A DNA stretch of 63,891 bases, filler included, from Chrysochromulina tobinii (taxonomy: Eukaryota): the NCBI GenBank assembly GCA_001275005.1. It is 8 parts of 8 records of this genome, joined end to end, with 100 filler letters (N's around TTAATTAATTAA, not from the genome) between each part and the next. Parts side by side here need not be neighbours in the genome. Positions count along the whole stretch, not along the records: positions 1 to 20,497 come from JWZX01000780.1; 7 more parts are not named here. One strand, given 5' to 3'. This document shows positions 3,756 to 49,158 of this stretch, in pieces (positions within the stretch are counted from its first letter, which is position 1; each line of letters starts with the position of its first letter). The notes under the pieces are model-generated. The model had not been told where the DNA came from. It did not search any database and saw nothing but the letters and a program-made list of their open reading frames with translations. A program made the position numbers and the translations under genes.

Positions 3756-4954
3756 CTACACGCTGCTCATGCTGCTCGACGAGAACATGCCAAACCGGAA
3801 AGAGGCGCGCACCTCGAGCCAATCTCGTGCCGCGCACCGATCGTCGGCAACCATGCGCGTGATGCGGTCCTGCTTCGCATGCTCACGTGCCGCGTAGTCA
3901 CCCACGCGTCTCCACCGACGGAGCGGATCTGCCTTGAGCGCCTGCTGCACCTGATGAGGGAGGCAATCAGCATGCAATCAGTCTCCACCGACGGAGCGGA
4001 TCTGCCTTGAGCGCCTGCTGCACCTGATGAGGAAGGCAATCAGCATGCAATCAGTCTCCACCGACGGAGCGGATCTGCCTTGAGCGCCTGCTGCACCTGA
4101 TGAGGGAGGCACTCAGCGGCGCTTGAGAGACATGCTGAGGGCAGGTCCGAGGACGATTGAAACTCAGAGAGTAACAGTAGCCCATCGGGGGGGTAGCCCG
4201 ATCGGGGGGGAGGGGGTCGGCAGCTCGGGCAGCGCTGTACCTGATGCTGCCAGACGGACACATAGTCACCAGTGGCCGCTGAGAGCTCTGAAGGCTTTGG
4301 AGCGGCCGGCGCCAAGGGCGGCGTGGGCAGCAGGGGCGTCTCGCATCGCGGCATGCCAAAGGGCGTCGTGCCAAGCTCCAGTCGGGTGAGCGTCCGTGAC
4401 TTGATACTGCTCCCCCTCTTGTGTGCATCTGCCGCGGCCGAATGCGGCCGGCTGCGATCGTGGCTGTTGAGCATGTCGGGCAGGCTGGTAGTGCTCGCGC
4501 TCGAGGTGAGAACTCGGCCGACCCGGCTCACAGTACGCGTCTGTGTCGTTGGCGTGAGCAGCTCCGCCAGCGCCTTGCGGGTCTTGTCACTCGCCTTGTC
4601 GGGCGTCGTCGGTGGCGCGGCTCCCTGGTGGTTCTCCTTATTCTCCTTGTTGACCTTGCTCCGAGCCCGAATGATGGAGTCACTGCCCATCTCTACCGTC
4701 GTTGGCGTCACCCACGCATTGGGCAGAACTGGCGCGGACGCGGTGTGCGGCATCTGCGGTGTTGAAGCGAACTGGACGATCTTGGCCACGGAGGAGCTCG
4801 CGCCTGTCGGCGTGCTCGCAATGCATCGAACGCGCGCGATCGGCGTTGGCGCGCTGGCTAGGTTGCGGCTCGTTGGGATCCGCGCGACGACTGGGGCGAC
4901 TGGCAGTGAGTTCGGAGCCTCGCGCTCAGGCAGCACGAAGAATGGCGACTTCAT
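3756..4954 (-). CDS. Hypothetical Pro/Ser/Thr-rich protein, 2 exons (intron 3951-4240)
   Basis: ORF 4040-4954 joins via CAG|GTACAG...CCCTCATCAG|GTG to VQQALKADPLRRWRRVG..., stop 3756-3758; contains KEN motifs. Confidence 0.55.
3908..4110 (-). repeat. Three tandem 73-bp units = 3' splice site + first ~42 nt of exon 2
   Basis: Units start at 3908, 3981, 4054. Confidence 0.95.
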
Positions 4955-5220: not shown

Positions 5221-8200
5221 ATGCTGCTGCGCGCGACCAGCACCCGCTCGGAGGATGTAACCCGGCCGCCGCTGGCGCAGCGCTATCGATCTTCACCTCT
5301 CGCCTCGCCAGAGATGCCCACGGGCATCACCAACATCATCTCCAACGAGGCTGCCGAGCGCTTCTCCTTTTACGGCATGAAGTGCATCCTCGTCGTGTTC
5401 ATGACCTCGCATCTTCGCGACGCGCAGAGGCAGCCGGCCTATCTGAGCGAGAAGGTCGCACTCGTCTACTACCACTCATTCACCAGTGCCGTGTACCTGA
5501 CCCCGCTCGGCGGAGCGCTGCTAGCCGAGGCGGTGCTCGGCAAGTACCGCACGGTCGTGTACCTGTCGCTCGTGTACTGCGGAGGGCACCTCGCTCTCGC
5601 AATCGACGAGACGCGCACCGGTGATGGCCGCTGGGCGCACACGTAGTTGATTGCGTCCGATGGCCACGGATGGCCGCTGATTGCGTCGCGATTGGCGCTG
5701 AGAGCCGCTGATTGCGTCTGATTGCCGCTGAGGGCGCCCTCGCTCGAGCAGGCCTCTTCGTCGGCCTCGCCCTCGTCGCCCTCGGCTCCGGCGGCATCAA
5801 GCCGTGCGTCAGCGCCGTGTTGGGCGACCAGTTCGGCGAACTCAACCAGCACTTGGTGAGCGTCGCCTTGATTGCACTTGATTGTGTACTGGTTTGCTCT
5901 GGATTACAGTGGATTGGTGAGCTCGGCCTTGGTTGAACATGGTTGCTCTCGATTGCACTTGATTGCCTCAGGTGAGCACGGCCTTTGGGTACTTCTATCT
6001 GGCCATCAATCTGGGCGCCTTCACCTCGACGTTACTCACACCCTACCTTCTCGAGCACGCGGGCTCGCATGCGGCCTTTGGCGTGCCAGGTGGTTGCACT
6101 TGATTGCACTCGTTTGCACTTGAGTGTACTTGACGTGGTAGTGCTCACCACGGCGCCCTCGCCCACACACAGGCATCGCCATGGCTCTCGCAACGCTCGC
6201 CTTCTGGAGCGGCCGTCACAAGTACAGACCTCTGATGACCTCTGATGACCTCTGATGGCATGCTGATTGCCATACCGCCGCCGTAGGTACACGCACGTGC
6301 CCCCGAATGCGAGCCGCTTCCTGATGACCTCTGATGACCTCCCTCATCAGGTACACGCACGTGCCCCCGAATGCGAGCCGCTTCCTGCGCAGCACTTGTA
6401 GCCCCGAGGGTGCCCGCGCGCTGTGCAAGCTGATCGGCTTGTTTGGCTTCTTCGCGGTGTATTGGAGCTTGTATGACCAAAGTGGCTCGGCGTGGGTGCT
6501 GCAGGTGAGCGTCTCGGATGGCCCCTGATGGCCTCTGATGGCCTCCCTCATCGCATGCATGTGAGCGGCTCGGAGTGCTTCTGATGGCCTCTGATGGCCT
6601 CTGATGGCCTCTGATGGCCTCCGATGGCCTCTGATGGCTTCTGATGGCCTCTGATGGCCTCTGATGATCACTGATGGCCTCTACTGGCAGGCAGAGAAGT
6701 TGGACAGAAGGTTCCTGGGTGTGGAATGGCTCCCCTCCCAAATCGGGGCGATCAATCCTCTCTTGATCCTCACACTCGTACCGCTCCTGCACGGCGCCGA
6801 CTTTGGCACCCCTCTCGGCGCCGTGTCGGGCGTGGGGCGCTCGGCGTTCTTCGCACGGCTCGGGCTCGTACCACGACGGCGCGTGCGGCTGGTAGGGCTC
6901 TACGAGCTCGTCGCCCGACACGGCGTTCGCGTTACGCCGCTGCGTAAGATCGGCTGCGGGCTCGTGCTCTGCGCGTGCTCGTTCCTGATCCCGCTGCAGG
7001 TGGAGGTTTGGATGGAGGCGAGCGGGTACAATCATAGCGCTGCAGCTCTGGCCGAGTGCAACGGCGCTGTTGGCGACGGCGGCGGCGGCGGTGCGCGTGG
7101 CTGTGGGCTCAGGCCCAGCATCGCATGGCAGGTGGTTGCCTTTGATCACGTGCCCACTGATTGCCCTTGATGAATACTGCTCAGTGAGGCCGAGCATCGC
7201 GCGGCAGCTCCTCGCTGATCTCGTGCCCCCTGATTGCCCTTGATGAATACTGCTCAGTGAGGCCGAGCATCGCGCGGCAGCTCCTCGCTGATCTCGTGCT
7301 CACGCTCGTTGATCTCGTCTCGATCTCGTCTGATCTCGTCTCGATCTCGTCTCGGTTTCGTCTGATCTCGTCTCGATCTCGTCTTGGTTTCGTCTGATCT
7401 CGTCTCGATCTCGTCTCGGTTTCGTCAGCTCGTCGCCTATTTCGTGCTCACTCTTTCGGAGGTGCTCGTCTCCGTCACTGGCCTCGAGTTCAGCTACACG
7501 CAGGCGCCACCGGCCATGAAGAGCATGGTGATGGCATTCTACCTCAGCGCGGTCGCCGCAGGCAATCTGGTCACCGTGGCCATCAATGCGAGCATCCTCA
7601 ACGCTGACGGCTCGAGCAGGTGAGTGCCGCTGCTTGCCGCTGATGGACTACGATGGCTTCTGATTGCTTCTGATAGCATCTCGAGTTCATCCCTGACTGC
7701 ATCTCTGATTGCCTCTGATGTGGCAGTTGGAGTGAGGTCGAGTACTATCGGTTCTTCACACTGATTGCTTCTGATTGCTTCTGATTGCTTCTGATTGCCT
7801 CCGATGTGGCAGTTGGAGTGAGGTCGAGTACTATCGGTTCTTTACACTGATTGCTTCTGATTGCCTCTGATGTGGCAGTTGGAGTGAGGTCGAGTACTAT
7901 CGGTTCTTTACACTGATTGCTTCTGATTGCTTCTGATTGCTTCTGATTGCCTCTGATGTGGCAGTTGGAGTGAGGTCGAGTACTATCGGTTCTTTACACT
8001 GATTGCTTCTGATTTACTTCTGATTGCTTCTGATTGCCTCTGATGTGGCAGTTGGAGTGAGGTCGAGTACTATCGGTTCTTTACACTGATTTCTTCTGAT
8101 TGCTTCTGATTGCCTCTGATGTGGCAGTTGGAGTGAGGTCGAGTACTATCGGTTCTTCACACTGATTGCTTCTGATTGCTTATGATTGCTTCTGATTGCT

Positions 8201-8560
8201 TCTGATTGCCTCTGATGTGGCAGTTGGAGTGAGGTCGAGTACTATCGGTTCTTCACGCTGCTCATGTTCGTCACCGCCGCCGCCTTCGTGCCGTACGCCG
8301 CGTGCTACAAGGAGAAGAGATACTTTCAAGGCCATGGGATGGACGAGATAGAGACGAGATCGGACGAGATGGAGACGAGAACAGACGAGATAGAGACGAG
8401 ATTTCAAGGCCATGGGACGGACGCGGACGCGGACGGTCCCGAGGCGGGGGCGGGGCCGCAGCCGACGTGGCGATCGTCGCAGCCGCTGCTGCCCGATGAG
8501 GTCAAGCTCGCGACGACTCGACCACGAGACGCTATAGTCGCTCGACACGAGACGCTTTAG
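5221..8560 (+). CDS. POT/PTR family proton-dependent oligopeptide transporter (multi-exon; start may be 5083)
   Basis: [12 protein letters not shown] (ExxERF), [41 protein letters not shown] motifs; introns ~5621-5751, 5856-5971, 6090-6172, 6222-6350, 6505-6690, 7132-7428, 7620-8223. Confidence 0.92.
7715..8260 (+). repeat. Seven copies of acceptor + exon start (GATGTGGCAG|TTGGAGTGAGGTCGAGTACTATCGGTTCTTYAC) separated by variable numbers of CTGATTGCTT decamers
   Basis: Direct reading; only the last copy (exon from 8224) continues into the ORF. Confidence 0.95.
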
Positions 8561-9186
8561 AGGGCTTTAAAGGCCGACTCGGTCTCGCGCGGGGTCGGAT
8601 CCGTTACGATTAGTACGACGTTAAAGCTACGACGTATGACGCGGGCGATACGCGGGCGAGGACGCGAGGTCAAGGCCGTATATTACATACTCTACCGCAC
8701 GGGTCTAGGCCGTCCGGTCTAGCCGACCGCGACGCGCGACCTGACCACGCGACGTCATACACGACGCGCGCGAGACGGGCCGAAGCGCGCGGCGACCGGC
8801 GTGGAGAGTTTCAGAGTAGCCCGAGCTGGAGTACCTGGTTAATATCATATTATGCGCGCCCCGGCGGCGGTCTTCTAGAGAGACGCGCCGGGCGGACCGG
8901 CACTTATAAATCGAATTCATCCCGACACCGTTAGGTCCCTTCTCTAGAAGAAAGCGCATTCAGCATTGTATGTGCATTGAACGCCATGGAGATTCATGTG
9001 TTTATGACACTTCGATCTCCCATCTGTGCGAGCCTTCGGACTTCGCTCACATGATCCTGATCGCCGGCGCGCTCGCCGTGGTTCGCGCGGCACGCCGCCA
9101 GACCCGAGACCGCAGAGGATCCGTATAGCCCGAAGTCCCGGACGAGATTCTACGAGATGCTCCCGAGATTCTTCGAATTTCGTCAG

Positions 9187-11115
9187 TCAGGTCGCCGAAT
9201 GCGGCGACACGCTGCCAGCATTGTCTCGCGCCGAGATCACGACCTCGCGGAGGGGGATCACGGCCTCCCCACTGGTGCTTCTCCCCCGAGCGTCGCTGGA
9301 CCTGCCCGGAGAGAGCGTCGTCCCGGGCGTTGGAGAGGGCCCCCCTCTTGAACGAGGCGAGAGGAGCGCGGCTCCGAGCCCAGTGCCGGAGCGTGTCATC
9401 TCGCGCTCGAGTGCCCACGACGGCGGCAGTGAGGCGGAGAGGCTAGGCGACGAGGTGACCTGATGAGGGAGCTCATCATGTACCATCAGAGGCGATCAGA
9501 GGCAATCAGATGCGATCAGAGGCCATCAGAGGCGTACTGAGGAGCGTTGGGAGGTGGCCAATTAGGGAGGCAATTAGGGAGGCGATCAGGGAGGCGTACT
9601 GAGGAGCGTTGGGAGGTGGCCAGCGTGGCCAGCGTGGCTACATGCATCTGGGACGAGATCAACGAGGGCGAGGTGCATCCGGGTCGAGATTGCATCTGGG
9701 ACGAGATCGACGATGGCGAGGTGAAGGATTCGGGTCCTCTGTTGAAGGCGAACTCGGAGCCAAGCTCCATCTCCGTCTCCAGCCGCGCGCGCTCGACGAT
9801 TGCAGCTGATGAGAGAGGCAGTTGGGGAAGCAATTAGGGAGGCCATCAGGGAGGCAATTAGGGAGGCAATTAGGGAGGCAATCATCTCCGTCTCCAGCCG
9901 CGCGATATCGACGATTGCAGCAGCAGCGAGATGCGAGCACATCCCGACAGAGGCCATCCGAGGCCATCCGCGGCCATCCGAGGCCATCCGAGGCCATCCG
10001 AGGCCATCCGCGGCCATCCGAGGCCATCCGAGGCACTCACCAGCGCGGATCTCATTATTAGGGAGGCAATTAGGGAGGCAACTAGGGAGGCACTCACCAG
10101 CGCGGATCTCCCGCTCGCGCGCCACTCGATGGCACAGCCCCGCATTCTCGGCCTGCAGCCGCGAGAGCTCGTGCTGCAGAGTTTCGTTACCCTTGCGCTG
10201 CTCTTCACACTCTCTCCGATAACGCTCCTGCTGCTCGCCCAGCCGATCGATCTCGCGCGTGAGGTGCGAGACGAGGAGATGCGTTCGCGCCGCCTCCTCG
10301 TCCGCCGCCGCGACGGTGCGCCCACGACGGCGCTCCTCGTCCGCGGCTGCCGAGGCCGTCGCCGCCGACGGCGACGCGCCGGCTGGCGGCGCCGTGTACT
10401 CGCACACGTGGGGTGGTGGCGGCAGGTCCTCCGCGGGGGCCATCCCCGCCGCCGCCGTCACCGCCGCCCCCATCCCCGCCGCTCCGCCGCCGCCGCCGAG
10501 GCGGCTGTCTGCGGCGGCGGCATCGGCGGCGTGGCCAGTCCAGCGCTGCAGGTGCCCCTGGATGCTCTGCAGGATCGACGACGTGTTCTCGCGCAATCTC
10601 GTCTCAAGGGCGCGCTTCTCATCGAGGACGGCGCCGAGCTGCTTCTGCAGCTTGTTCACGATGTACTCCTGCTCCTGCTCGAGCTGGATCTCAAGGTGGA
10701 CCTTCTCTTCCTTGACCTTCTGGAGCTTCTTGGTCAGCGCATTCGTGATCATCTCCTCCTCCACCTCCACCTGCCGCGCGAGCTCCTCCTTCTCCTGCTG
10801 GAGCGCCTCGAGCCTCTTCATGAGTTTGTTGGTGATGTACTCCTCCTCCTGCTCGGCCTGGACCTGCAACTGCCCCTGCAGCTGCGTCTGACGGTCGAGC
10901 TGCACCTGCAGCCGCGCTCGAGCTGATTTCTCGCGCTCGAGCTGAAGGAGCGCGCTCTGCAGCGCCTGCTGAAGCTCAGGCACAGACGCGAGCGCCAAAG
11001 GCACCGAAGCGAGGCTATCGGTCTCGGAGGCGGAGTCGGGCGCCTCTGACGGCACGGCAGACGACTCCGACGTGACCCGTTGCACAAGGTCAGGACGAGA
11101 CTCAGGCGTCGACAT
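9187..11115 (-). CDS. CCDC6/H4-like coiled-coil protein (DUF2046), introns 9806-10097 and 9460-9599
   Basis: AEQEEEYITNKLMKRL..EEEMITNALTKKL..LEQEQEYIVNKLQKQL repeats typical of CCDC6; splicing keeps the frame to the stop at 9187. Confidence 0.8.
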
Positions 11116-11291: not shown

Positions 11292-13880
11292 ATGCGGACG
11301 CATATGCTTCTAGCTCTGCTCACATTGCGTGCCGCCTCGGGCTTCTACCTGCCTGGCGTGGCGCCTCGCGAGTACCTGGATGGAGAGAAGGTCGAGGTTA
11401 AGGTCAACAAGCTCACATCTACCGTCACGCAGGTGCGCTCTGCCCACGGCCAGCGCCTTCGCCATGGCCGGCGCTCTGGCCTGCTATCGACGCGTACGCC
11501 TGCACCCGCCCTGAACAGCTGCCGTACGACTACTATAAGCTTGCCTTTTGCAAGCCCAAGGAGCTCATCAACGCGGTCGAGAACCTCGGCGAGGTCCTTC
11601 ACGGCTCGGTGATCCAGAACTCGCCGTATCAGCTCTTTGCGCAGAAGCAAGACTTCAAGGTGCTCTGCAAACAGGATCTGGACGCGAAGCAGGTGGCCGA
11701 GTTTGGGAAGCGGATTGGCGAGGAGTACCGCGTGCAGCTCATCATGGACAACCTGCCCGCGGCCACGCGCATGATCTCCGAGCTGCCCAATGGAAAGACG
11801 GTCTACATGTACGACCGTGGCTACAGGTTGGGCTTCATGGGAGCCAAGGAGTTTCCTGGCACGATCCCAAAGACGCCGTACCTGAACAACCACCTGCGCT
11901 TCATCATCAAGTACCACAAGGACGCCAAGTTCGAAGGCGCGCGCCTCGTCGGCTTCGAGGTCGAGGCCTTCTCCGTGAAGCACACCTACAAAGGCAAGTG
12001 GGGCGTGGACGCGAGCCTCACCTCGGTGCCTCTGTCGCCGGACCTGCCACCCCAGCCGATCGTGGAGGCGGGCGAGTACATCTTCACGTACGACGTGCAG
12101 TGGGAGGAGTCACCTATCCGGTGCGACTCGCGATGATCGCGCCTAGACCTCCCCACATGGGTGATTGCCTCTCTCATTCTCTCATTGCATGCTGATTGCG
12201 TGGGGTAGGAGTCACTCGTCCGGTGCGCCTGATTGCCTCTTCTCATTGCATGCTGATTGCGTCGGATTGCGCTGCATGCAGGTGGGCTTCGCGCTGGGAC
12301 CTCTACCTCTACATGGGTGACGACCAGATCCACTGGTTTTCGATCCTCAACTCGCTCGCCATCGTGCTGCTGCTCACGGGTACGCGCTTCGGCTCGGATG
12401 GCCTCTGATGGCCTCAGATAGGTTCTGAGTGGCTCTGAGTGGCTCTGAGTGGCTCTGAGTGGCTCTGAGTGGCTCTGAGTGGCTCTGAGTGGCTCTGAGT
12501 GCGTTTCCATTTTCCGCCCTCATCAGGCATCGTGGCGATGATCATGATGCGCACGCTGCGGCGCGACCTCAACCGTTACAACTCGGTCGAGGAGAAGGAG
12601 GAGTTGGCAGACGAGAGTGGCTGGAAGCTCGTACATGGCGATGTGCTGCGCCCGCCGCCGCTGCCCCTGCTTCTCTCGTCGTCGGTGGGGACTGGCATGC
12701 AATTGCTCTTTATGGCCATCATCTCGATCTTCTGCGCGATGCTCGGTTTCCTCTCTCCCGCCAACCGCGGCGGCCTTCTCACTGCGACGCTGCTGCTCTT
12801 CGTGTTGATGGGCGTGCCTGCGGGCTACTACGGCTCGCTCCTCTACAAGTCCATCAAGGGCTCGCAGTGGAAGTCGTTGACCGCTTCGACCGCCCTCCTG
12901 TACCCAGGCGTCATCTTCCTCCTCTTCTTCTGCCTCAACCTCTTCATATGGGGCTGCGGCTCGTCTGCCGCTGTGCCCTTCACCACCATGCTTGCCCTGA
13001 TCTGCATGTGGTTCTGCATCTCCGTCCCCCTCGTCTTTCTCGGCGCGTTCTTCGGCTTCCAGACGACCCTGCCCGAGCCGCCGGTGCGCACACGATCGAG
13101 ATCGCACGCCAAGGACTGCCGCATGCAAGTGCTCACCACGGCGCCATCTCTTCCCCACAGGTGCGCACGAACGAGATCGCACGCCATGTACCGCTGCAGG
13201 CGTGGTACATGGGGTTGCCGTGCACGATGGCGGTGGGCGGCATCTTGCCGTTCGGCGCCGTGTTCATTGAGCTCTTCTTCATCATGAGCTCTGTCTGGCT
13301 GCAGCGCTTCTACTACGTCTTCGGCTTCCTCGCGCTTGTGATCTTCATCCTGCTGCTCACGTGCGCCGAGATCTCGATAGTCCTCTGCTACTTCCAGCTC
13401 TGCAACGAGGATTATCACTGGTGGTGGCGCTCCTTCCTAAACTCGGGCGCGGCAGGCGGCTACTTGCTTGGCTACTCCGCCATCTACTTCCATACACAGC
13501 TTGACATGGTCGGTTTCACACCGACGCTCCTCTACTTTGGGTGTGAACGCCCCCCGTGTGCTGTGGAAGATTGCCTTTGGGTCTCCCCCGCGTGCCTCTC
13601 TGATAGCCCCGATCACCTCCCTCCTCAGGCACACGTTGATTGCCACTGATTACCACTGATTGCCACTGATTGCCACTGAGTGCCACTGATTGCACCCCTC
13701 CTCAGGCACATGTTGATTGCCACTGATTCCACTGATTGCCACTGATTGCCACGGATTGCACCCCTCCTCAGGTACATGTTGATCGCCGCCATCATCTTCG
13801 CGCTGATGACGGGTACAGTTGGTTTCATGGCCGCGTGGTGGTTCGTGTGGAAGATCTTCTCGGCCGTTAAGGTCGACTAG
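11292..13880 (+). CDS. TM9SF: Transmembrane 9 superfamily (EMP70/nonaspanin) protein
   Basis: Signal peptide then [61 protein letters not shown]-terminal KVD; introns 11433-11518, 12122-12282, 12380-12526, 13084-13160, 13541-13771. Confidence 0.95.
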
Positions 13881-17461: not shown

Positions 17462-20400
17462 ATGTCGGGCTCGCATCTCAGCCGCGACTTCTTCGAGCTT
17501 ATGTGCGCGCACACCCCAGCTCCGGCCAGTGCACGGCCAGGCACTCAACGCGAGGCGATGAAGTAACGGGACGCACAGACAGCGGGTGCGCTCACGCGCA
17601 CCAATGGGAGTGTCCTCACGCGCGCGCCATCGCCTGCTGCTATGTGCGCAGCAAGAGCATCGGCGAGTGCAAGTCGAAGCAGGAAGAGGATAAGATCTTG
17701 GCCTCGGAGGTGTCCACGCTCAAGCAAATCTTCACCACGCAGCTCACTGATAAGAAGTTGAAGGAGGCGCTCATGCGGGTCATGTATGCAGAGATGCTCG
17801 GCCACCACGCCGATTTCGGCCACATCCACGCGGTGAACATGACGCAAAAGACGAATCTCGTCTCCAAGCGCGTTGGCTACATGGCGAGTGCTGCCTGCCT
17901 CCACCCGGGCCATGAGCTGGTCACGCTCGCCGTCAACACCATGCGACGCGACGTCGCGTCGTCGAACCACGTCGAGGTGTGCGCGGCGCTGATCGCGATC
18001 CCGAAGCTGGTGAGCAAGGAGTTCCTCCCCGCGCTGCTCCAGCCGGTCCTCGCCCTCCTCGACCATGCCATGGAGGCCATTCGTAAGAAGGCCGTGATGG
18101 TGCTGCACAAGTTCTACACCATTGAGCCCGAGAGTATGGCGAGTCACACGGATAAGCTGCGGCGCGCGCTGTGCGACAAGGACCCGGCGGTGATGGGCGC
18201 GGCGCTGTACATCTTGCATGCGATGGCCGAGCAGACTCCCGCGCATCACAAGGACCTTGTGCCCTCGTACGTTTCGATCCTCAAGCAGATCACCGAGCAT
18301 CGGCTGCCCTCCACGTTTGATTACCATCGCGTGCCAGCTCCATGGATCCAGATCAAGCTGCTCAAGCTGCTGGCCCTGTTGGGCACGAACGACCAACGCG
18401 CGAGCGAGGGCATGTACGAGGTGCTCAATGACGTGATGCGCCGCGCCGACACGGGCATCAACATCGGATACGCGGTCATCTACGACTGCGTGCGCACGGT
18501 CACAACGATCTATCCGAATATCCCACTGCTCGAGGCGGCGGCGGGCCACATCGCCCGCTTCGTCCAATCGGAGAACCACAATCTCAAGTATCTCGGGATC
18601 AAGGCGCTCGCCCAGATTGTGCAGGTACGGACGAACCCACGCCCTAATCCAAATTAGGCAGGCCATGCGCCCGAGCTGCCCGGCCTGCAGCACGTGCTCA
18701 ACACGGCGCGCACCATCGCCTCTCTCGCCTCTCTCTCTCCTCTCCCCACAGGTCAACCAAAAGTACGCGCTCGACCACCAGATGGTCGTCGTCGAGTGCC
18801 TCGAGGACCCTGACGAAACTCTCAAGCGGAAGACCCTCGACCTGCTCTTCGCGATGACGAACGCGTCCAACATCATCTTCGTGGCCGACACACTCCTCGG
18901 CCACCTGCGCTCGACAACGGACCAAACCTTCCGAGGCGGCCTCGTCGACCGCATCACGCAACTCGCCGAGCGGTCAGCGCAACTCCCTACAGCGCACTGC
19001 CGAGCAACTCCCCACAGCGCACTCCCGAGCGGCGCCCACCATGCGAGCGCTCACCACGGCGCCCGGCTCTCCGCGCCTCGGCCCGCTCTCAAGCGTGCGA
19101 GCGCTCATCACGGCGCGCATTCCTCCCCTGCCCCCCTCCCCTGCCCCCCAGGTACGCGCCCGACAACACGTGGTACATTCGGACCATGAACGCGGTCTTC
19201 GAGCTCGGCGGCGAGTTAGTCCGGCCCGACATCGCCCACAACTTGATGCGCCTGATCGCCGAGGGCTCCGGCGAGGATGAGGCCGCTGACATGGCCATGC
19301 GCAAGTACGCGGCGTCGCAGTACTATGAGCTGCTCGAGAAGCCAGTGCTGCCCGACAACCTCGTGCAGGTGCTCTGCTGGGTGCTGGGTGAATATGGTTA
19401 CCTGGTCGACGGCACCCAGGTCCTCGACATAGCGACGCGCTTGTGCGGCGTCATCAAGCGCCAGTTGACGCACGTCTCGACCCGCAATTGGGTCTTGGGC
19501 GCGCTCGTGAAGCTCGTCGCCCAGCTTGGCCAGGCCCCTTCCCAGGTGACCGAGCTCGCCCAAAAGTACTCTCGGTCCGCGGACGTGACTCTCGCAAAGT
19601 ACGCGAACGAGCTGCTCGTATTCAGGGAGCACATGGACGTGATGAAGGCGGTGCTGCCCGTGGACGCGTCGTGTGAGGACCTCGAGACCGATCGCTCGCT
19701 TTCCTTCCTCAACGGCTATGTGCAGGTGACGAAGCCCTGATGGCCTCTCTTGATTGCCTCTGATTGCAGGTGACGAGACCCTGCTGGCCTCTCTTGATTG
19801 CCTCTGATAGATTGCAGGTGACGAGACCCTGCTGGCCTCTCTTGATTGCCTGCTTCCCCCTTCTTCTCAGTCTCTCCCCTTGTTTGGCTCACGATCACTG
19901 ATGACCACTGATGACCACTGATGACCACTGATGATCACTGATTGCTTCCCTCATCAGTCTCTCCCCCTTGTTTGGCTCACAGGCTGCCGTCGCCAACGGC
20001 GCCCAGCCCTACCTCAAGCGCGGTCAGCGCCCGGCAGACCTCGAGGCTGCGGCAAAGCGGGCCGCGGAGATCGCCGCCAAGCAGCCGGCCCAGCCGACGA
20101 TGCGCTTCGAGGAGTATGAGCGAGCACAGCTGCCCGTGATGTCGGCGCCACCAGCGGCGCCGGAGCCATCGGCGCCTGCCGTCGAAGAGACGCCACCACC
20201 CCTCTCGAGCGGCCTCAACACCTCAGGCGTCAAGCAAATGTGGGGCGCCGAGGGCTTCATGGGCGACAAGCCCGCGCCCGCGCCCACCCCCGCACAGGTC
20301 TTCACACCGGCTGGGGCCCCTCCGGCGGGGGGGTACCCCGGGAGCGCGCCGCAGGCCCCCCCTCGCCCCGCCGCGCCACCGGAGAAGAGTGCCGAACAGA

Positions 20401-20497: not shown

Positions 20498-20597
20498 NNN
20501 NNNNNNNNNNNNNNNNNNNNNNNNNNNNNNNNNNNNNNNNNTTAATTAATTAANNNNNNNNNNNNNNNNNNNNNNNNNNNNNNNNNNNNNNNNNNNN
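20498..20597. other. Artificial contig linker (N44-TTAATTAATTAA-N44); identical linkers at 26021-26120, 34181-34280, 38294-38393, 40335-40434, 50245-50344, 62664-62763
   Basis: Six-frame-stop linker embedded in Ns, 100 nt each. Confidence 0.98.
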
Positions 20598-23500
20598 GTT
20601 CCGCAGCGCCCCCGCCGCGTTCTCCTTTTGGCCATCCGTGCCGCTCTGCACCAGCGTCACGAGCGGCGCGATCGCGCCAGCCTGCGCGATCAAGACCTGG
20701 TTCTCGGCATTTTTGAACGCGAGGTTCCGCAGCGCCCCCGCCGCGTGCTCCTTTTGGCCAGCCGTGCCGCTCTGCACCAGTGTCACGAGCGGCGCGATCG
20801 CGCCAGCCTGCGCGATCAAGACCTTGTTCTCATCGTTGCCCGCGAGGTTCCCCAGCGTCCCCGCCGCCTGCTCCTTTTGGCCATCCGTGCCGCTCTGCAC
20901 CAGCGTCACGAGCGGCGCGATGGCGCCAGCCTGCACAATCAAGACTTCATTCTCGGCGTTGATCGCGAGGTTCGCCAGCGCATCCGCCGCGTACTCCTTT
21001 TGGCCATCCGTGCCGCTCTGCACCAGCGTCACGAGCGGCGCGATCGCGCCAGCCTGCACAATCAAGACTTCGTTCTCATCGTTGCACGCGAGGTTCCGCA
21101 GCGCATCCGCCGCGTACTCCTTTTGGCCAGCCGTGCCGCTCTGCACCAGCGTCACGAGCGGCGCGATCGCGCCAGCCTGCGCGATCAAGACCTGATTCTC
21201 ATCGTTGCACGCGAGGATCGCCAGCGCACCCGCCGCATACTCCTTTTGGCCAGCCGTGCCGCTCTGCACCAGCGTCACGAGCGGCGCGATGGCGCCTGCC
21301 TGCGCGATCAAGACCTGGTTCTCGGCGTTGTTGGCCGCGAGGTTCCACAGCGCATCCGCCGCGTACTCCTTTTGGCCAGCCGTGCCGCTCTGCACCAGCG
21401 TCACGAGCGGCGAGATCGCGCCAGCCTGCGCGATCAAGACCTGGTTCTCATCGTTGCCCGCGAGGCTCGCCAGCGCACCCGCCGCGTGCTCCTTTTGGCC
21501 AGCCGTGCCGCTCTGCACCAGTGTCACGAGCGGCGCGATCGCGCCAGCCTGCGCGATCAAGACCTTGTTCTCGGTGTTGTTGGCCGCGAAGTTCCACAGC
21601 GCCCCCGCCGCCTGCTCCTTTTGGCCAGCCGTGCCGCTCTGCAACAACGTCACAAGCGGCGCAGTCGCGCCAGCGTGCGCAATCAAGACCTGGTTCTCGG
21701 CGTTGATCGCGAGGTTCCGCAGCGCCGCCGCTGCCTGCTCCTTTTGGCCATCCGTGCCGCTCTGCACCAGCGTCACGAGCGGCGCGATCGCGCCAGCCTG
21801 CGCGATCAAGACCTGGTACTCGGCGTTGGCCGCGAGGTTCCACAGCGCCCCCGCCGCCCGCTCCTTTTGGCCAGCCGTGCCGCTCTGCACCAGCGTCACG
21901 AGCGGCGCGATCGCGCCAGCCTGCGCGATCAAGACCTTGTTCTCGGCGATCATCGCGAGCCTCCGCAGCGCCCCCGCCGCCTGCTCCTTTTGGCCATCCG
22001 TGCCGCTCTGCACCAGCGTCACGAGCGGCGAGATCGCGCCAGCCTGCGCGATCAAGACCTTGTTCTCGGCATTGGCCGCGAGGTTCCAGAGCGTTGCCGC
22101 CGCCAGCTCCTTTTGGCCATCCGTGCCGCTCTGCACCAGTGTCGCGAGCGGCGCGATCGCGCCAGCCTGCGCGATCAAGACCTTGTTCTCGGCGATCATC
22201 GCGAGCCTCCGCAGCGCCCCCGCCGCCTGTTCCTTTTGGCCATCCGTGCCGCTCTGCACCAGCGTCACGAGGGGCGAGATCGCGCCCGCCCGCGCGATCA
22301 AGACCTGGTACTCGGCGTTGATCGCGAGGTTCGCCAGCGCCCCCGCCGCGTACTCCTTTTGGCCATCCGTGCCGCTCTGCACCAGCGTCACGAGCAGCGC
22401 GATCGCGCCAGCCTGCGCGATCGAGACCTGGTTCTCGGCGTTGAGCGCGAGGTTCCCCAGCGCCCCCGCCGCCTGCTCCTTTTGGCCGGCCGTGCCGCTC
22501 TGCAACAACGTCACAAGCGGCGCAATCGCGCCAGCCTGCGCGATCACGACCTTGTTCTCGGCGTTCATCGCGAGCCTCCGCAGCGCCTTCGCCGCCTGTT
22601 CCTTCTGGCCATCCGTGCCGCTCTGCACCAGCGTCACAAGCGGCGCGATCGCGCCTGCCTGCGCGATCAAGACCTGGTTCTCAACATAGGCCGCGAGGTT
22701 CCCCAGCGTTGCCGCCGCCTGCTCCTTTTGGCCATCCGTGCCGCTCTGCACCAGCGTCACGAGGGGCGCGATCGCGCCAGCCTGCGCGATCAAGACCTTA
22801 TTCTCGGCGTTGACCGCGAGGTTCCACAGCGTCCCCGCCGCGTTCTCCTTTTGGACACCCGTGCCGCTCTGCACCAGCGTCACGAGGGGCGAGATGGCGC
22901 CAGCCTGCGCGATCAAGACCTTGTTCTCGGCGTTTGTCGCGAGGTTCCGCAGCGCCCCCGCCGCCTGCTCCTTTTGGCCATCCGTGCCGCTCTGCACCAG
23001 CGTCACAAGCGGCGCGATCGCGCCAGCCTGCACAATCAAGACCTTGTTCTCGGCGTTTGTTGCGAGGCTCCGCAGCGCACGCGCCGCCTCCGCCCCGGCC
23101 GCTGGGTCTTGGGCCGTGAGCATCGCCACGAGCGGCACGATTCCGCCCGCCCTCGCAATCGCCACCCGCGACTCATTGTCGCGCATGTCAGCCAGCGCTC
23201 CGGCCGCATCGGCGCTGCTGTTGCGCACCTGCTGGACCAGCCGCTGCAGCCGCTCGTCCTTCGAGAGCGCCGGCGCATCTGCGCCCGTGCCCACGCCCGC
23301 ACCACCACGCGATGGCATCGTTGGCATCTCTGGCCAAGTAGATCTTCCACCATCAATGGCCATCATTCGGCGTAAGTCGCGATCTCGCGCAATCTCCGCG
23401 GCATCTCGTGTGGTGTAAAAGAGCAGCGTATCCCGCATCTCCTCCACCTCGATCGTCTGGACAAACTGCGATGCGTGTCTGTCCTCAACCGCATGAGCTT

Positions 23501-25914
23501 CCGCGGCTGCTTCGCCCTGGTCGAAGCGAAACGAACGCACCCTCGGCGGCTCCAGACGAATAGCAACCATTTCGCCACGGATCCCGTGCGCGGGCAGCCC
23601 GCCAATGTCCGACGGGTACGCCGAGAACGCGCGCATCCCAAGACGGTTGATCGGCGACGTCTGATCCGCCCCATCAAAGTACACGTACAGATCCGGGTAC
23701 GTGGCACGCGCTGTGTAGGCTTTGAGCCCGAGGACACGTCGCCAGCCTCGGCTTGCCTGCAGGATGGCCATCTCCTGCACCTCTGTGGCCGCTGGGAAGG
23801 GCTCGGGAGCCACCGACACCGGGATCGCATCGCGAGCAGCCTCGAGTGGGCAAGGGCTAATCTGGAGGGCCTTCCCCCTTCTCGACGAGGCGGGAGGCGG
23901 CGTGGAAAGCACTTGCATGTTGGCGGGCTTGATCAAGATGGGGGCGCCGTCGCGCATGCCTGGCTTCTGCCGGTCGACCAGCTGCACCTCCCATCGCTCG
24001 ACACCGCCCGTCATATTCCGACGGTCCACAACGCCCATGCGCCCATTCAGCTCTGGCCGTGACGCGAGGCCGCACAGAGTGACACGCGCACCCACCCAAG
24101 GGGCGATGGCGCTGGCGGCATCCGCCTTTCGTGCCGAAGGCGGCCGGATGGCTGTTGTCGCCCCCTCCGCCTGTGCTGCGCTCTCAATGGGGATCCCTTG
24201 CGCAGCCGCGAGGCCATACAGCCGCCGCGCCTCAGCCTCGTTCTTTGGTCCGCCTAGTTCTTGCTCGTGCATGGCCCCAAGACTGTACTGTGCCTCAGCA
24301 AGCCCTTGCGCGGCCGCGAGGCCATACAGCCGCCGCGCCTCAACCTCGTCCTTTTGTCCGCCATGCCCTTGCTCGTACATGGCCCCAAGAATTTGCTGTG
24401 CATCAGCATGCCCCTGCGCGGCCGCGAGGCCAAACAGCCGCCGCGCCTCTAGCAAATCCTGCGGTCCGCCCTGCCCGTGCGCGTGCATGATGCCGAGGTT
24501 GCACTGCGCTTTAGCATTCCCCTGCGCAGCCGCGAGGCCATACAGCCGCCGCGCCTCCGGCAAGTCTTGCGGTCCGCCCTGCCCGTGCGTGTACATGATC
24601 GCGAGGTTGTGCTGCGCTTTAGCATGCCCCTGCGCGGCTGCGAGGCCAAACAGCCGCCGCGCCTCAACCTCGTCCTTGGTTCCGCCACGCCCTTCATCGT
24701 GCATGAGTCCGAGGTTGTACTGCGCGTCAGCATCCCCCTGTGCGGCCGCGAGGCCATACAGCCGCTGCGCCTCTGCCTCGTCCTTTGGTCCGCATCGCCC
24801 GTGCTCGTGCATGATTCCGAGGTTGAACTGCGCGTCAGCATGCCCTTGCGCAGCCGCGAGGCCATACAGCCGCCGCGCCTCTAGCAAGTCTTGCGGTCCG
24901 CCCTGCCCTTCGCGGTGCATGACCCCGAGGTTGTACTGCGCTTTAGCATCCCCCTGCGCAGCCGCGAGGCCATACAGCCGCCGCGCCTCTAGCAAATCCT
25001 GCGGTCCGCCTAGTCCTTGCTCGTGCATGATTCCGAGGTTTTGCTGTGCCTCAGCATGCCCTTGCGCAGCCGCGAGGCCATACAGCCGCCGCGCCTCTAG
25101 CAAATCCTGCGGTCCGCCCTGCCCGTGCGTGTACATGATCCCGAGGTTGTGCTGCGAATCAGGATCCCCCTGCATAGCTGCGAGGCCAAACAGCCGCCGC
25201 GCCTCAACCTCGTCCTTGGTTCCGCCACGCCCTTCATCGTGCATGAGTCCGAGGTTGAACTGCGCGTCAGCATTCCCCTGTGCAGCCGCGAGGCCATAAA
25301 GCCGCCGCGCCTCTGCCTCGTCCTTTGGTCCGCGTCGCCCGTGCTCGTGCATGATTCCGAGGTAATGCTGTGCCTCAGCAAGCCCTTGCGCAGCCGCAAG
25401 GCCATATAGCCGCCGCGCCTCAGCCTCCGTTCCTTTCGGTCCCGCCAATCCCTTTCTCGTGCATGATTCCGAGATTGTGCTGAGCCCCAGCATACCCTTG
25501 CGCAGCCGCAAGGCGAAACAGCCGCCGCGCCTCAACCTCGTCCTTTGGTCCGCCTAGCCCTTGCAGGAACATGACCCCGAGGTCGTACTGAGCCTCAGCA
25601 TACCCTTGCGCAGCCAAGGTGCGAAGCTGCTGCCGCTCCGCCTCCGCCTTGTCCCTTGGTATGCCACGTCCTTGCGAGTGCTTGGAGGCTCCATCAGAGG
25701 ATCGATCCGACGAAGGCGACGGTTTCGGTGCAGACATCGCTGGCGATGGCTTCGGCGCCATATGCAGCGACGTGGGCTGCACGGCGAGCATCTCGCCGTT
25801 CTCGCAGCGCACCTTCCACCGACCGCGGGATTCGACCCATTCCACCACGTCGGCAACGCGACCGTTGAGCTCGGGCCGAGCCACCAGTCCCTCCAGCACG
25901 ACGCGAGCACCCAC
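20598..25914 (-). CDS. Giant repeat protein: SH3-like domain, ~13 Sel1 repeats, second SH3-like domain, linker domain, >=21 armadillo repeats (3'-truncated; apparent frameshift at ~25425-25445)
   Basis: 36-aa AQxNLGxMxxxGxGGxxDxxEARRLYGLAAAQG units; 41-aa AGAIAPLVTLVQSGTDGQKEQAAGALxNLA units; GARVxLxGLxxRPELNG twice. Confidence 0.9.
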
Positions 25915-40434: not shown

Positions 40435-43400
40435 CCTTCGACATCGGGTCGTCGCGAGGCGCGAACGAGGCGCGCCATCCCTCGAAGCCAAGCGCGAGCT
40501 TGCGGTTGATCATCCGGCTCAGGCCCTTGCGCAGCTTGCGAAGGAACTCGGCGCGCTCGACGGCCATCTCGAGCCACGCGCCGAAGCCCCGAGACAAGCC
40601 GCGGTTGATCAGGTGGCTCAGGCTTCTGCGCATCGACTCGCGCTTCGCCTTCACCGCAGCCCACCGCGAGTGCCAGCCCACCCAGCCGCGGGCGAGCTCG
40701 CGGTTGAGGAAATAGAGGAGTGCCTTCGACATCGGGTCATCACGAGGTGCGAAGGCGGCGATCCACCGATCAAACCCGAACGCGAGCTTGCGGTTGATCA
40801 TCCGGCTCAGACCCTTGCGCAGCTTGCGAAGGAACTCGGCGCGCTCAGCCGCCATCTCGACCCATGCGCCCCAGCCGCGCGACTGGCCGCGATGCAGCAG
40901 GTGGCCCACACTCTTGCGCATCGACTCGCGCTTCGCCTTGAGCTCCGAAAACGCCATGTACCACGCCACCCAGCCTCGAGACAGCCCGCGGTTCATCAGA
41001 TGCAGCAGCGCCTTCGTCATGTGCCCCTGCTGCGACTCTCGCATCTGCTTATGCGCGATCGCGGACAGCCAGCCAGCAAACCCGAGCGCCACCTTCCGGT
41101 TGATCAAGAAGCCCAAGCCCTTGCGCAGCAGGCGCAAGAACTCAGCACGCTCGACGGCCATCTCGACCCACGCGCCCCAGCCTCGCGACAAGCCGCGATT
41201 GAGCATGTGGCCGAGACCGCGCTTCAGCGCTGCGCGCTTGCGAGCGCCTTCCTCCCATGTAGAGTGCCACGCGTTCCAGCCGAGCGCGAGCTTCCGGTTG
41301 ACGAAGTAGCTCAGAGCCTTCGACATCGGGTCGTCGCGAGGCGCGAACGAGGCGCGCCATCCCTCGAAGCCAAGCGCGAGCTTGCGGTTGATCATCCGGC
41401 TCAGACCCTTGCGCAGCTTGCGAAGGAACTCGGCGCGCTCGATGGCCATCTCGAGCCACGCGCCGAAGCCCCGAGACAGCTCGCGGTTGATCAGGTGGCT
41501 CAGGCTTCTGCGCATCGACTCGCGCTTCGCCTTCACCGCAGCCCACCGCGAGTGCCAGCCCACCCAGCCGCGGGCGAGCTCGCGGTTGAGGAAATAGAGG
41601 AGTGCCTTCGTCATTGGATTCGTTGTCCTCGGCGCGCGCAGCTCGAGCCACGTAGCGAACCCTTGCGCGAGCTTTCGGTTGATCAAGAAGCTCGCTCCTT
41701 TCCTGAGCAGGCGGATGGACTGAGCGCGCGTGACTGCGAACGTGAACCATGTTTCCCATCCTTGTGCTAATCTGCGATTGGCCAGACGTCCGATGGCGCC
41801 ACGTGTCTTCTCATGAAACTCGACTAGGCTCTGCCAGACGCTGAACCATCCATTCCAGCCCTTCGTGAGCCCACGACGGCGCTTATGGTTGACCGCACGA
41901 GAGAGCAGGGCTACTCGCGGATCTACAGCTTCCTTCGTGCGCCATTTCGTAAGCGCCATCGCCACCTTCCGGTGGATCAAGAAGCCCAGGCCCTTGCGCA
42001 GCAGGCGCAGGAACTCGGCGCGCTCGACGGCCATCTCGACCCATGCGCCGAAGCCGCGCGACAGGCCGCGGTTGAGCATGTGGCCCAGGCTCTTGCGCAT
42101 CGACTCACGCTTCACTTTCAGCTCCTCCCACGTCGCATACCACGCCGTCCAGCCGCGCGACAGCCCGCGGTTCATCAGGTGCCGCAGCGCCTTCGACATC
42201 GGGTCATCACGAGGTGCGAAGGCGGCGATCCACCGATCGAACCCGAGCGCGAGCTTGCGGTTGATCATCCGGCTCAGACCCTTGCGCAGCTTGCGCATGA
42301 GCTCCGCACGCTCAGCGGCCATCTCGGACCAAGCACCGAAGCATCGCGACAGGCCGCGATTGATCAGGTGGCTTAAGCTCTTACGCATCGAGTCGCGCTT
42401 CCCTTTAATCGCAGCCCACCGCGAGTGCCATGCTGTCCAGCCGTGCGAGAGATGACGGTGGACGAGGTGGCGAAGGGCACGGCTCATCGGATCTGCAGTG
42501 CGCGACTCGCGCAGCTGGGAGACAGCACTCCACGCGCCAAAGCCGATGACGAGCTTGCGGTTGACCATAAAGCCCATGCCCTTGCGCAGCAACCGGAGGA
42601 ACTCGGTGCGCTCAGCAGCCAGCTCGATCCATGCACCCCAGCCGAGCGAGAGCTTGCGGTTCTTTAGGTGTCCCAGAGCCTTGCTCATGGGCTCGAGCTT
42701 CGCCTTGCGCTCCACCACAAACCACTCCCACGCGGTCCACCCACGCGCGAGGCCGCGGTTGATGAGGTCGGTGAGGGCGCGACGGGCCACCCCGCGTGCT
42801 GCCTGCCGGTCGCCGCACAGCGCCCGCCAGCCCTGCCAGCCGAGTGCCAGCTTGCGGTGGATCATGTGCTTGAACACCTGCCTCATCTTCGTGCGGTGCG
42901 CGTCGCGCTTGCTACGGCGGGCGTCCCATGCGTTCCATGCAGCGACGAGCCCGCGCTTGCGGAAGGCACCCACTGCCTTCTTCATCAAGGCCACGCGGTC
43001 CTTGCCGCTGGCCAAGGCCGCGCGCCACTGCTGAAACGCCGCCTTTCGCAGGCTCGTGCGCTTGATCGTGAAGGCGCGGTTCAAGACGCGCAGCGAGTGC
43101 GTGCGCCACTTGCTGGACGCAGCCCAGTTTCGAAAGTCGCTCTTCTTGTCACGCTTCCCCGCCAGCTGGCGCGCGCGGCGCATCCTATCGCGCTGCTCGC
43201 GCTGCTCGACGGCGCGGACCTTCCACAGACGCAGCCGATCGAGGCGGCGGCGCCGATCGCGCCGCTGCCGGAAGCTCGCTGCCTTCTTGCTGAGCGAGCG
43301 GGCGTACGCGAGGTCACCCCACTGCTGGAACGCGCTGGCGCGAGCGCCGCTCACCCACTGCTCCGTCGCGGCGAGCGCCATGCGCCGCTCGCGCAGCTCG

Positions 43401-46695: not shown

Positions 46696-49158
46696 TCACT
46701 TCTGGCTACTCTCTAAACTGTTACTATCCGGATACATGGCCCCCTTCATGAGCGAAAGCCCGTCAATAACGCCAAAGTCGGCATCGGTGGCCGCGCGCAC
46801 GCTCGCGAGATCGACGCCAGATGCAATCTCGCGCAGCGTGAGGCCGGAGCCGTCGGGTGCGACGTCGAAGACGCCGAGTTCGGTGATGAGCATCGACACG
46901 CAGCGTGCGCCGGTGAGGGGCAACGTGCAGTGGCGGAGCACCTTCGAACGCCCTCTCTTGTCGCAGTGCTCCATCGTGACGATCACCTTGGCGGGAGAGG
47001 AGACGAGATCCATCGCGCCGCCCATGCCTTTGACGAGCTTGCCAGGGATAAGGTAGTTGGCCATGTCGCCGTTAGCAGCGACCTGCGCCCGAGCCGAGGG
47101 TGGTCGCAATCAGAGGCGCAATCTGAGGCGCAATCAGAGTCGCAATCAGAGGCGCAATCAGAGGCGCAATCAGACCTGCGCCCGAGCCGAGGGTGGTGAC
47201 GTCGCAGGAGCAATCAGTCTCAATCAGAGGCGCAATCAGAGGCGCAATCAGAGGCGCAATCAGACCTGCATCGAGCCGAGGATGGTCACGTCGCAGTGGC
47301 AATCAGTCGCAATCAGAGGCGCAATCAGCGGCGCAATCAGACCTGCATCGAGCCGAGGATGGTCACGTCGCAGGAGCAATCAGTCGCAATCAGAGGCGCA
47401 ATCAGAGGCGCAATCATGGGCTATCAGAGTCCATCAAGCCTGAGCCCGAGCTGAGGTTGGGCCTCATCAGGCGCAATCAGTCGCAATCAGAGGCGCAATC
47501 AGAGGCGCAATCAGACCTGCATCGAGCCGAGGATGGTCACGTCGCAGTGGCCGCCGCGGATCATTCCAAAAGAGGCATCCGCGCTGAAGTACGAAGCGCC
47601 GGGCAGTGCAGTCACCTGAGTAGGGACGTACTCCGATACACTCAGCCGCAATCAGCCGCAATCAGCCGCAATCAGTCGCACTCAGCCACCATCAGATGCA
47701 ATCAGCCGCCATCAGAGGCACTCAGCTCACCGTCTGCTTGCCCGCGTTGATCAGATCGGCATCCTCTTGCCCCCTTGTGGGGAAAGGGCCGACGCCGAGC
47801 ATCCCGTTCTCGCTCTGCAACGTGATCGAGACGCCTTCGGGAATGAAGTTGCTCACCTGATGAGGGAAGCCATCATAGGTCATCAGAGGTCATCGGAGGT
47901 CATCGGAGGTCATCAGAGGTCATCAGAGGTCATCAGAGGTCATCAGAGGTCATCAGAGGTCATCAGAGGTCATCAGGCGCTCACGAGGGTCGGCAGCCCG
48001 ATGCCCAGGTTGACGTAATCTCCGTCAGCGAGCTCGAGCGCCGCGCGCCGAGCAATCCGCTCTCGGTCCGGCGTCATGGCGTCCCCTTCGGTCCGTTCAC
48101 CGGCGAGGGTGAGGCGCTCGATACAACGCTCGGACGGTCCCTGCACAATCCGCTCGACGAAGAGGCGCCATCAGCGGGCGCAATCAGATGGCGTAATCAG
48201 CCGGCGCAATCAGCCGGCGCCATCAGCGGCGCCATCAGCGGGCGCCATCAGAGGGCGCAATCAGTGAGGTGCAATCAGAGGGCGCCATCACCTGCACGAT
48301 CCGGTCGACGAAGATCCCCGGCGTGTGGATGTCGTTTGGGTCGAGCGTCCCCGCGGGCACGAGCTCCTCCACCTGCCTCGAGGAGGCAATTAGTGGCAAT
48401 CAGAGGCAATTAGTGGCAATCAGAGGCAATTAGAGGCAATCAGGAGCGGGCACGAGCTCCTCCACCTCCGCGATGGTGATCTTGCCCGCCGTCGCCACCG
48501 CCGGGTTGTGATTACGCGAGGTCATGCGATAGATAAGGTTGCCCTCGGTGTCGCCCTTCCACGCGCGCACGAGGGCAAAGTCGCCAGGCAGCGCCCGCTC
48601 CATGATGTACTCCTTACCCTCGAAGAGCTGCGACGCGCGTGGCGTCGAGCCCTTGATGACCTTGCCCGAGCCATCGGATGCGTATCGAACTGGCATGTTG
48701 CCGTGATGAACGAGGGTTCCGACACCGGTGGCGGTGAAGAAGGCCGGGATGCCCGCGCCGGCCGCGCGCATCCGCTCGGCCAGCGTGCCCATCGGCACCA
48801 GCTCGACATCGATCTCGCCGCTCAGGAATTGCTTCTCGAAGAGAGCGTTCTCGCCCACGTACGAGCCGATCATCTTGGAGATCTGCTTGCCCTGGAAGAG
48901 CAGGCCGAGGCCACGCTCGCTCGTGCCCACATTGGAGCTCACCACCGTCAGGTCGCCCACACCCTTCTTTTGCAGCGCAGCGATCAGGTTCTCAGGCACG
49001 CCCGTAAGGCCGAAGCCGCCGACGAGCAGCGTCGCGCCCGACGGCACGTCGGCGACGGCATCGGCGGCCGACGCGAAGACCTTGCCGCCGACCGGCACCG
49101 TCGACGAGCGATGCCGTCGCGCTGCGGCCAACGTCGTCATCAAGGCGCGACGCACCAT
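46696..49158 (-). CDS. OXCT1: Succinyl-CoA:3-oxoacid CoA transferase (fused A+B), mitochondrial-type presequence, 5 introns
   Basis: [52 protein letters not shown] (catalytic Glu), [10 protein letters not shown]. Confidence 0.95.

What the first reader, a model, noticed from the sequence alone, without database searches (positions are those of the whole stretch)
7620..8260. Seven-fold iterated acceptor + exon start: six decoy 3' splice sites before the real one
A constant ~45-bp unit alternates with variable numbers of CTGATTGCTT decamers, giving a CRISPR-like look. Every copy has branch-like motifs and CAG, yet only the last preserves the C-terminus. Using an upstream copy gives ..RFFTLIAS.. 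with an altered tail. This raises the question of how the spliceosome chooses the distal site, or whether isoforms exist.
Basis: partly seen in the sequence, partly recalled or inferred. Interest (0 to 1): 0.7.

Follow-up and report, generated by a model that had tools for sequence, protein, structure and literature searches.

The report
Algal splice-acceptor "mirage" repeat, seven copies
In a freshwater alga's peptide-transporter gene, the end of the last intron plus the start of the last exon is repeated seven times in this strain but only once or twice in wild relatives; the one informative transcript contig uses the last copy, so it is likely a tolerated repeat of a kind already known from lancelets rather than a splicing switch.

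Summary
The array fills the last intron (7620-8223) of a POT/PTR2 peptide-transporter gene on a Chrysochromulina tobinii contig. There are seven branch-like+CAG acceptors, each followed by the same 33-nt exon head. Only the seventh keeps the conserved last hydrophobic helix. DNA depth in two runs (unit about 7.6-8 times the flanks) argues against assembly inflation. Three wild alleles carry 1, 1 and 2 copies, so copy number varies. RNA support for the last acceptor is thin: one same-allele contig (depth 3.8) is unambiguous, two joints are ambiguous, and the deep run matches the one-copy allele. Decoy use is neither shown nor excluded. It matches amphioxus 'mirage' minisatellites; this scan noted the same thing before in several animals. 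What is of some interest: copy 1 keeps the upstream context of the only acceptor in one-copy alleles, so intron-side signals cannot explain a distal choice. Such exon-edge duplications occur at 10 of 17 decamer clusters in the window (control 10.5%). Verdict: new member of a known kind, first seen here in a haptophyte as far as my searches reach. Interest 0.3.

The parts
5221..8560 (+). POT/PTR2-family peptide transporter gene, 8 exons, 597 aa if the first in-frame ATG is used (start codon assumed)
   Evidence: Gene model; PF00854 on exons 6 and 7; POT homologs; introns 1, 2, 3, 6, 7 seen as GT..AG joints and intron 4 in contig pieces in RNA runs; intron 5 not seen in the rows shown
7429..7619 (+). 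Exon 7
7620..8223 (+). Last intron (604 nt) when the seventh acceptor is used; 183-193 nt in three wild alleles
   Evidence: Joint 7615->8220 (cut +4), GT..AG; allele lengths
7620..7726 (+). Ancestral-type intron: donor, unique part and acceptor copy 1; its last 90 nt match 89/90 the only acceptor of one-copy alleles L002/L003
7727..8223 (+). Six extra units: 33-nt exon-8 head + 2-5 decamers + acceptor (heads start at 7727, 7813, 7879, 7965, 8052, 8128)
   Evidence: DNA contig depths
8224..8560 (+). Real exon 8 coding part (conserved last hydrophobic helix, then low-complexity tail), stop at 8558-8560
   Evidence: RNA contig X13 record 12
6285..6387 (+). Second acceptor+exon-head duplication in the same gene (intron 4; 39-nt copies at 6285 and 6349)
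   Evidence: distal copy used in X13 record 10 and X14 record 14

Best explanation
This is a variable-number tandem repeat of an intron-exon boundary (a 'mirage') in the last intron of a Chrysochromulina tobinii peptide-transporter gene, likely tolerated rather than functional, and the full-length mRNA seen uses the last copy, likely because signals downstream of the copied exon head decide the choice. Shown: anatomy, 7 copies here, 1-2 in wild assemblies, DNA depth, one same-allele transcript contig spliced to copy 7. Inferred origin: a slip or unequal crossover between the intron's CTGAT decamers and a CTG-containing word 35 nt into exon 8 made the first extra copy; further unequal exchange, probably also between alleles, expanded it. 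Inferred splicing: copy 1 has a competent intron-side context, so the distal preference must come from the exon side (enhancers beyond nt 33 or coupling to 3'-end formation, i.e. terminal-exon definition), possibly helped by decay of decoy-spliced RNAs that stop 375-776 nt early.
For: Anatomy and translations. Alleles: L002 and L003 have one acceptor, L001 two, window seven, with about 1-2% exon divergence (7-16 differences in 987-1123 columns). DNA contig depth of the unit against single-copy flanks: 741/92 in X1, 329/(52, 35) in X6; copy-specific spacer contigs at 0.7-0.9 times flank depth in X1, so most templates carry the array. X13 record 12 (517 nt, 0 differences, depth 3.8) runs 7451-7619 then 8224-8562. 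At intron 4 two same-allele contigs also take the distal copy. Four of six residues invariant in 8 of 8 aligned homologs (M14, F21, E30, Q35 of exon 8) lie beyond the decoy breakpoint. Variants in decoys (one in copy 2, one in copies 2-5) are those of the real acceptor/exon in L002/L003. 10 of 17 decamer clusters in the window have such a duplication against 394 of 3739 control placements. Mirages in amphioxus vary between haplotypes and did not disturb splicing (PMC3087553, passages). An exon-centric proximity rule is described for exon-defined human splicing (PMC9225289, passages).
Against: RNA evidence is thin. Only 1 of 4 RNA runs laid gives an unambiguous same-allele junction, at depth 3.8. 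The joints in X12 and X14 end inside the 34-37 nt shared by all copies (the tool placed X12's at copy 1 and X14's at copy 7), so they fit any copy. X16 (depth 53) carries the L002/L003 letters at 3 of 3 diagnostic sites, so it probably comes from a one-acceptor allele and says nothing about skipping. Contigs drop rare forms, and X12 holds unspliced array sequence (record 15, depth 5.2) that could be pre-mRNA, DNA or the 3' UTR of a decoy-spliced RNA. The intron-centric proximity rule (PMC9225289) predicts copy 1 (107-nt intron) in a short-intron gene. Short-read metagenome assemblies can collapse arrays, so 1-2 copies in L001-L003 may be underestimates. No enhancer, poly(A) site or decay pathway was tested.
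Confidence: 0.7

Rival explanations
1. The decoys are often used (nearest acceptor wins); those RNAs stop early and are degraded or give a transporter lacking its last helix. The array would then be a mildly harmful allele that lowers transporter output with copy number.
For: Copy 1 keeps the context of the working acceptor of one-copy alleles (89/90 nt). The intron-centric rule favours the upstream 3' site in short introns (PMC9225289 passages). X12 and X14 joints are compatible with any copy, and X12 has array sequence in an RNA library.
Against: X13 record 12 passes the shared stretch unbroken into the real exon. Unspliced pieces of introns 1, 3, 6 and 7 also occur in these libraries, which explains array sequence without decoy use.
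Confidence: 0.2
2. The array is a selected control device or produces functional truncated isoforms.
For: All seven acceptors are intact.
Against: Absent or reduced in 3 of 3 wild alleles, two of which carry a different, donor-side duplication in the same intron; similar duplications sit at many unrelated introns; copies are near-identical, i.e. recent.
Confidence: 0.04
3. Two-step splicing: an upstream acceptor is used first, and an AG|GT at +10/+11 of the head then re-splices to the same position in copy 7, giving the identical mRNA.
For: The head holds an AG|GT at +10/+11; the product would be indistinguishable in contigs.
Confidence: 0.03
4. The array is an assembly artefact.
For: X1 and X6 may be related to the material that was assembled; no listed contig spans the array.
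Against: Unit depth is 7.6-8.0 times flank depth against 6.4 expected from the window, and copy-specific variants appear as their own contigs with 0 differences. If anything the assembly is 1-2 copies short. A two-copy form exists in L001.
Confidence: 0.03

Closest known systems
Amphioxus 'mirage' minisatellites (BflGb6, BflGb9, Adh3, troponin C, PGBD5; PMC3087553 and PMC3902484, passages read)
   Same: Tandem units made of the 3' end of an intron plus the 5' part of the next exon; units 66-96 nt (mirages 10-160 nt); copy number differs between haplotypes (6 and 3 at BflGb6; 7, 2, 1, 1 here); intact AG signals; normal mRNA still made; both donor and acceptor edges can be copied.
   Different: Found in a haptophyte alga; units are padded by variable numbers of the genome's intron decamer, whose CTGAT resembles a branch site; it lies before the terminal exon; normal splicing here rests on one contig, not RT-PCR.
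Intron gain by tandem genomic duplication of AG|GT (Rogers model; PMC3443670, passages)
   Same: Tandem duplication creating extra splice sites, with the redundant copies spliced out.
   Different: Here an existing intron edge was copied and no new intron arose; the acceptor is CAG|TT, not AG|GT.
Introners of Chrysochromulina sp. (PMC9860276, passages)
   Same: Same genus; short duplications at intron edges.
   Different: Introners are dispersed insertions with 4-bp target-site duplications; this is a local head-to-tail array of the gene's own sequence.
CRISPR array
   Same: Constant units alternating with variable stretches.
   Different: Variable parts are runs of one decamer, the host is a spliced eukaryotic gene, and the constant part is exon sequence.

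Membership tests
Mirage minisatellite | Tandem repeat whose unit spans an intron-exon boundary | tested here: met
Mirage minisatellite | Units keep splice signals | tested here: met
   CAG and CTGAY in 7 of 7 copies
Mirage minisatellite | Copy number varies between haplotypes | tested here: met
   7 in window, 2 in L001, 1 in L002 and L003; short-read collapse not excluded
Mirage minisatellite | Normal mRNA is still made | tested here: met
   X13 record 12, depth 3.8
Mirage minisatellite | Extra sites are not used to a notable degree | tested here: inconclusive
   Contigs built from 31-letter words cannot resolve the 34-37 nt shared stretch
Mirage minisatellite | Somatic or clonal length instability | not testable with these tools
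   No long reads were offered
POT/PTR2 transporter (host gene) | PF00854 match above the curated cut-off | tested here: met
   Exon 6 34.6 bits and exon 7 30.8 bits, cut-off 27; exon 1 alone gave no Pfam hit but POT proteins as top homologs
Rogers-type intron gain | Duplicated AG|GT supplying both sites of a new intron | tested here: not met
   Acceptor is CAG|TT and the intron exists in one-copy alleles
CRISPR array | Unique spacers between repeats | tested here: not met
   Spacers are 2-5 copies of one decamer

The most novel reading that the evidence does not exclude
In Chrysochromulina, branch-site-like decamers that fill introns drive frequent copying of exon edges across the genome (about half of decamer-rich introns in this window), and the spliceosome of this short-intron alga picks among identical acceptors by exon-side cues, against the intron-centric proximity rule; natural alleles with 1, 2 and 7 or more acceptors would make this testable without engineering.
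Probability: 0.3. Interest if true: 0.55.

Novelty: new member of a known kind. Interest (0 to 1): 0.3.

Why it matters
As a single locus it is an ordinary mirage. It extends the class from animals to a haptophyte (no such report in searches of the open-access library; subscription papers are not covered). It offers a natural allelic series for asking whether intron-side or exon-side signals pick a 3' splice site in a protist. It also warns that gene models in this genome can take a wrong acceptor or donor.

Tried and rejected
No whole genome is held, so the density estimate rests on this window only. X16 first looked like strong support for the last acceptor (depth 53) but matches the one-acceptor allele at 3 of 3 sites, so I dropped it as evidence of skipping. 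X12 and X14 joints dropped as ambiguous. X16 shows no cover over exon 5 (6370-6486); not interpreted. The first density test without merging gave 14 of 30 clusters against 11.8% (all) or 4.4% (coding arrays excluded) of controls; I merged clusters and widened the flank, because four of the 30 belonged to this one array. An Atlas search, a cluster look-up and a SCOT search gave no taxon. 58 of 61 related loci were 74% identical or less and were not examined for introns, apart from blastn of L004-L009, which gave short exon-only matches. CRISPR, Introner and simple recursive splicing were considered and rejected for this array. Passages of PMC12480563, PMC4580454 and PMC8724738 gave nothing on such repeats.

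Full report
Observation. The region holds seven exact copies of an acceptor plus exon head, with AG ending at 7726, 7812, 7878, 7964, 8051, 8127 and 8223; spacings are 86, 66, 86, 87, 76 and 96 nt, that is a 46-nt constant part plus 2-5 decamers. Each acceptor has 3-5 CTGAY pentamers within 60 nt and no competing AG within 40 nt; that CTGAY resembles the branch consensus is recalled knowledge.

Host gene and organism. The array lies in the last intron of an eight-exon POT/PTR2 transporter gene (model; PF00854 above cut-off on 2 of 4 exon pieces scanned; POT homologs). RNA contigs show GT..AG joints for introns 1, 2, 3, 6 and 7 and pieces across intron 4 (23 joints and 1926 pieces were not shown). 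The window is a chain of contigs separated by N blocks; the first runs 1-20497. A gene on it is 100% identical over 301 aa to a protein labelled Chrysochromulina tobinii on a 20497-nt contig. Using copies 1-6 gives 504-511 aa instead of 597 and removes M14, F21, E30 and Q35 of exon 8, which are invariant in 8 of 8 homologs aligned; calling this stretch the last membrane helix rests on its hydrophobicity and on recalled MFS topology.

Is the array real? Two of 11 DNA holders were laid. In X1 the flanks have depth 93 and 92 and the unit contig 741 (8.0 times); in X6 52 and 35 against 329 (7.6 times the mean); the window predicts 6.4 for that contig. Spacer contigs specific to single copies are at 0.7 and 0.9 times flank depth in X1, and one head variant is at 3.4-3.5 times against 1.8 expected. 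Contig depth is a rough measure and these runs may be close to the assembled material, but the array is not inflated and may be one or two copies longer.

Alleles. L002 and L003 have one acceptor; L001 has two; intron 7 is 193, 193 and 183 nt against 604. L002 and L003 instead carry a decayed copy of the exon-7 end and donor inside the same intron. The 90 nt before copy 1 match the sole acceptor of L002/L003 at 89 of 90 places; copy 7's match at 34 of 90 without gaps. Two single-base variants found in decoys are the letters of the real acceptor and exon in L002/L003, which suggests exchange between alleles (inference). Introns 5 and 6 also vary in length among alleles. Collapse of arrays in short-read assemblies cannot be excluded.

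Which acceptor is used? Four of 6 RNA runs were laid. X13 record 12 has no difference from the window and runs from exon 7 into 8224-8562 (depth 3.8): the last acceptor is used. X12 and X14 have spliced joints that end within the 34-37 nt shared by all copies, so they are uninformative. X16 (depth 53) shows the letters of L002/L003 at 7575, 8254 and 8362; it likely comes from a one-acceptor allele, so it supports the competence of the copy-1 type context, not skipping. Unspliced pieces of several introns occur in these libraries, and X12 holds array sequence, so decoy use is neither shown nor excluded. At intron 4, where a 39-nt acceptor-head copy sits 64 nt upstream, two same-allele contigs use the distal copy.

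Context. Local duplications of non-decamer sequence occur at 10 of 17 merged decamer clusters in the window (2 further clusters inside coding arrays were skipped; this array is one of the 10) against 394 of 3739 random placements (binomial p 1.6e-6; placements overlap, and clusters outside this gene are not RNA-verified introns; first version). By eye these are acceptor+head or exon-end+donor copies. At 7 of 10 junctions examined, two or more letters of the exon copy run into a decamer-like word; this was read by eye without a null model. Here the decoy leaves the exon at a CTG that matches the decamer start after one mismatch.

Mechanism. Shown: structure, variation, one correct transcript. 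Inferred: origin by slippage or unequal exchange on decamer-like words, then expansion. Because copy 1 has a working intron-side context and six of seven copies are identical from -22 to the head, a distal preference must come from beyond the head: exon enhancers, coupling to 3'-end formation, or loss of decoy-spliced RNAs, whose stops lie 375-776 nt before the normal one. PMC9225289 (passages) describes an intron-centric rule favouring the upstream 3' site in short introns and an exon-centric rule under exon definition, in human data; applying it to this alga is inference.

Comparison. [quoted passage not shown] The term and these papers came as a lead from earlier scan notes on other genomes, and I checked the passages. 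Searches (listings) showed no report of this in haptophytes; the library lacks most subscription papers. PMC9860276 (passages) reports Introners with 4-bp duplications in a Chrysochromulina, a different thing. PMC3443670 (passages) gives the AG|GT duplication model, which fits some neighbouring introns but not this array.

Verdict. Real, polymorphic, a new member of a known kind; likely tolerated. Interest 0.3; the most novel open reading (genome-wide, decamer-driven exon-edge copying with exon-side acceptor choice) has probability about 0.3 and would merit about 0.55.

Noticed in passing
window 48342-48456 (- strand), succinyl-CoA:3-ketoacid CoA-transferase gene: A 93-nt intron whose first bases are an exact copy (22 nt including AG|GT) of the next exon's start, padded with decamers; it holds a stop, and homolog P0121 lacks the insert. 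It fits intron birth by duplication of an AG|GT site or a long target-site duplication.
   Followed up: partly
window 55947-56085 (+): Same pattern: 25-nt copy of AG|GT plus exon head at both ends of a 114-nt decamer-rich stretch.
   Followed up: partly
window 7260-7306 (intron 6 of the same gene): A decayed copy (39 of 47 letters) of the spliced exon 6/exon 7 junction lies inside the intron; part of it is doubled in the window, L002 and L003 and single in L001. It may record how this intron arose.
   Followed up: partly
window 47080-47550 (- strand): Several copies of an exon end plus donor inside one intron of the CoA-transferase gene; tblastn finds the exon-end peptide three times.
   Followed up: partly
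window 3908-4117 (-), 9473-9620 (-), 9768-9905 (-), 10030-10110 (-), 13601-13809 (+), 19720-19850 (+): Further two- to three-copy duplications of acceptor+head or exon-end+donor next to decamer runs; many have AG|GT at the copied edge, which would allow re-splicing.
   Followed up: partly
L002:1299-1400 and L003:1001-1100: One-acceptor alleles carry a decayed copy of the exon-7 end and donor in intron 7.
   Followed up: partly
window 7310-7426 and 8341-8402: An 11-nt repeat in intron 6 and its reverse complement in the coding tail of exon 8 form arms of about 40 nt, 85-93% complementary, about 1 kb apart, around exon 7 and the array.
   Followed up: no
window 20598-23089, 24195-25615, 40435-41614, 51162-52496: Long tandem arrays with periods of 123, 108, 288 and 33 nt, probably coding repeats.
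   Followed up: no
window 20498-20597 and six similar blocks: Paired runs of 44 N separate contigs, so neighbours across these blocks are not shown to be linked.
   Followed up: yes
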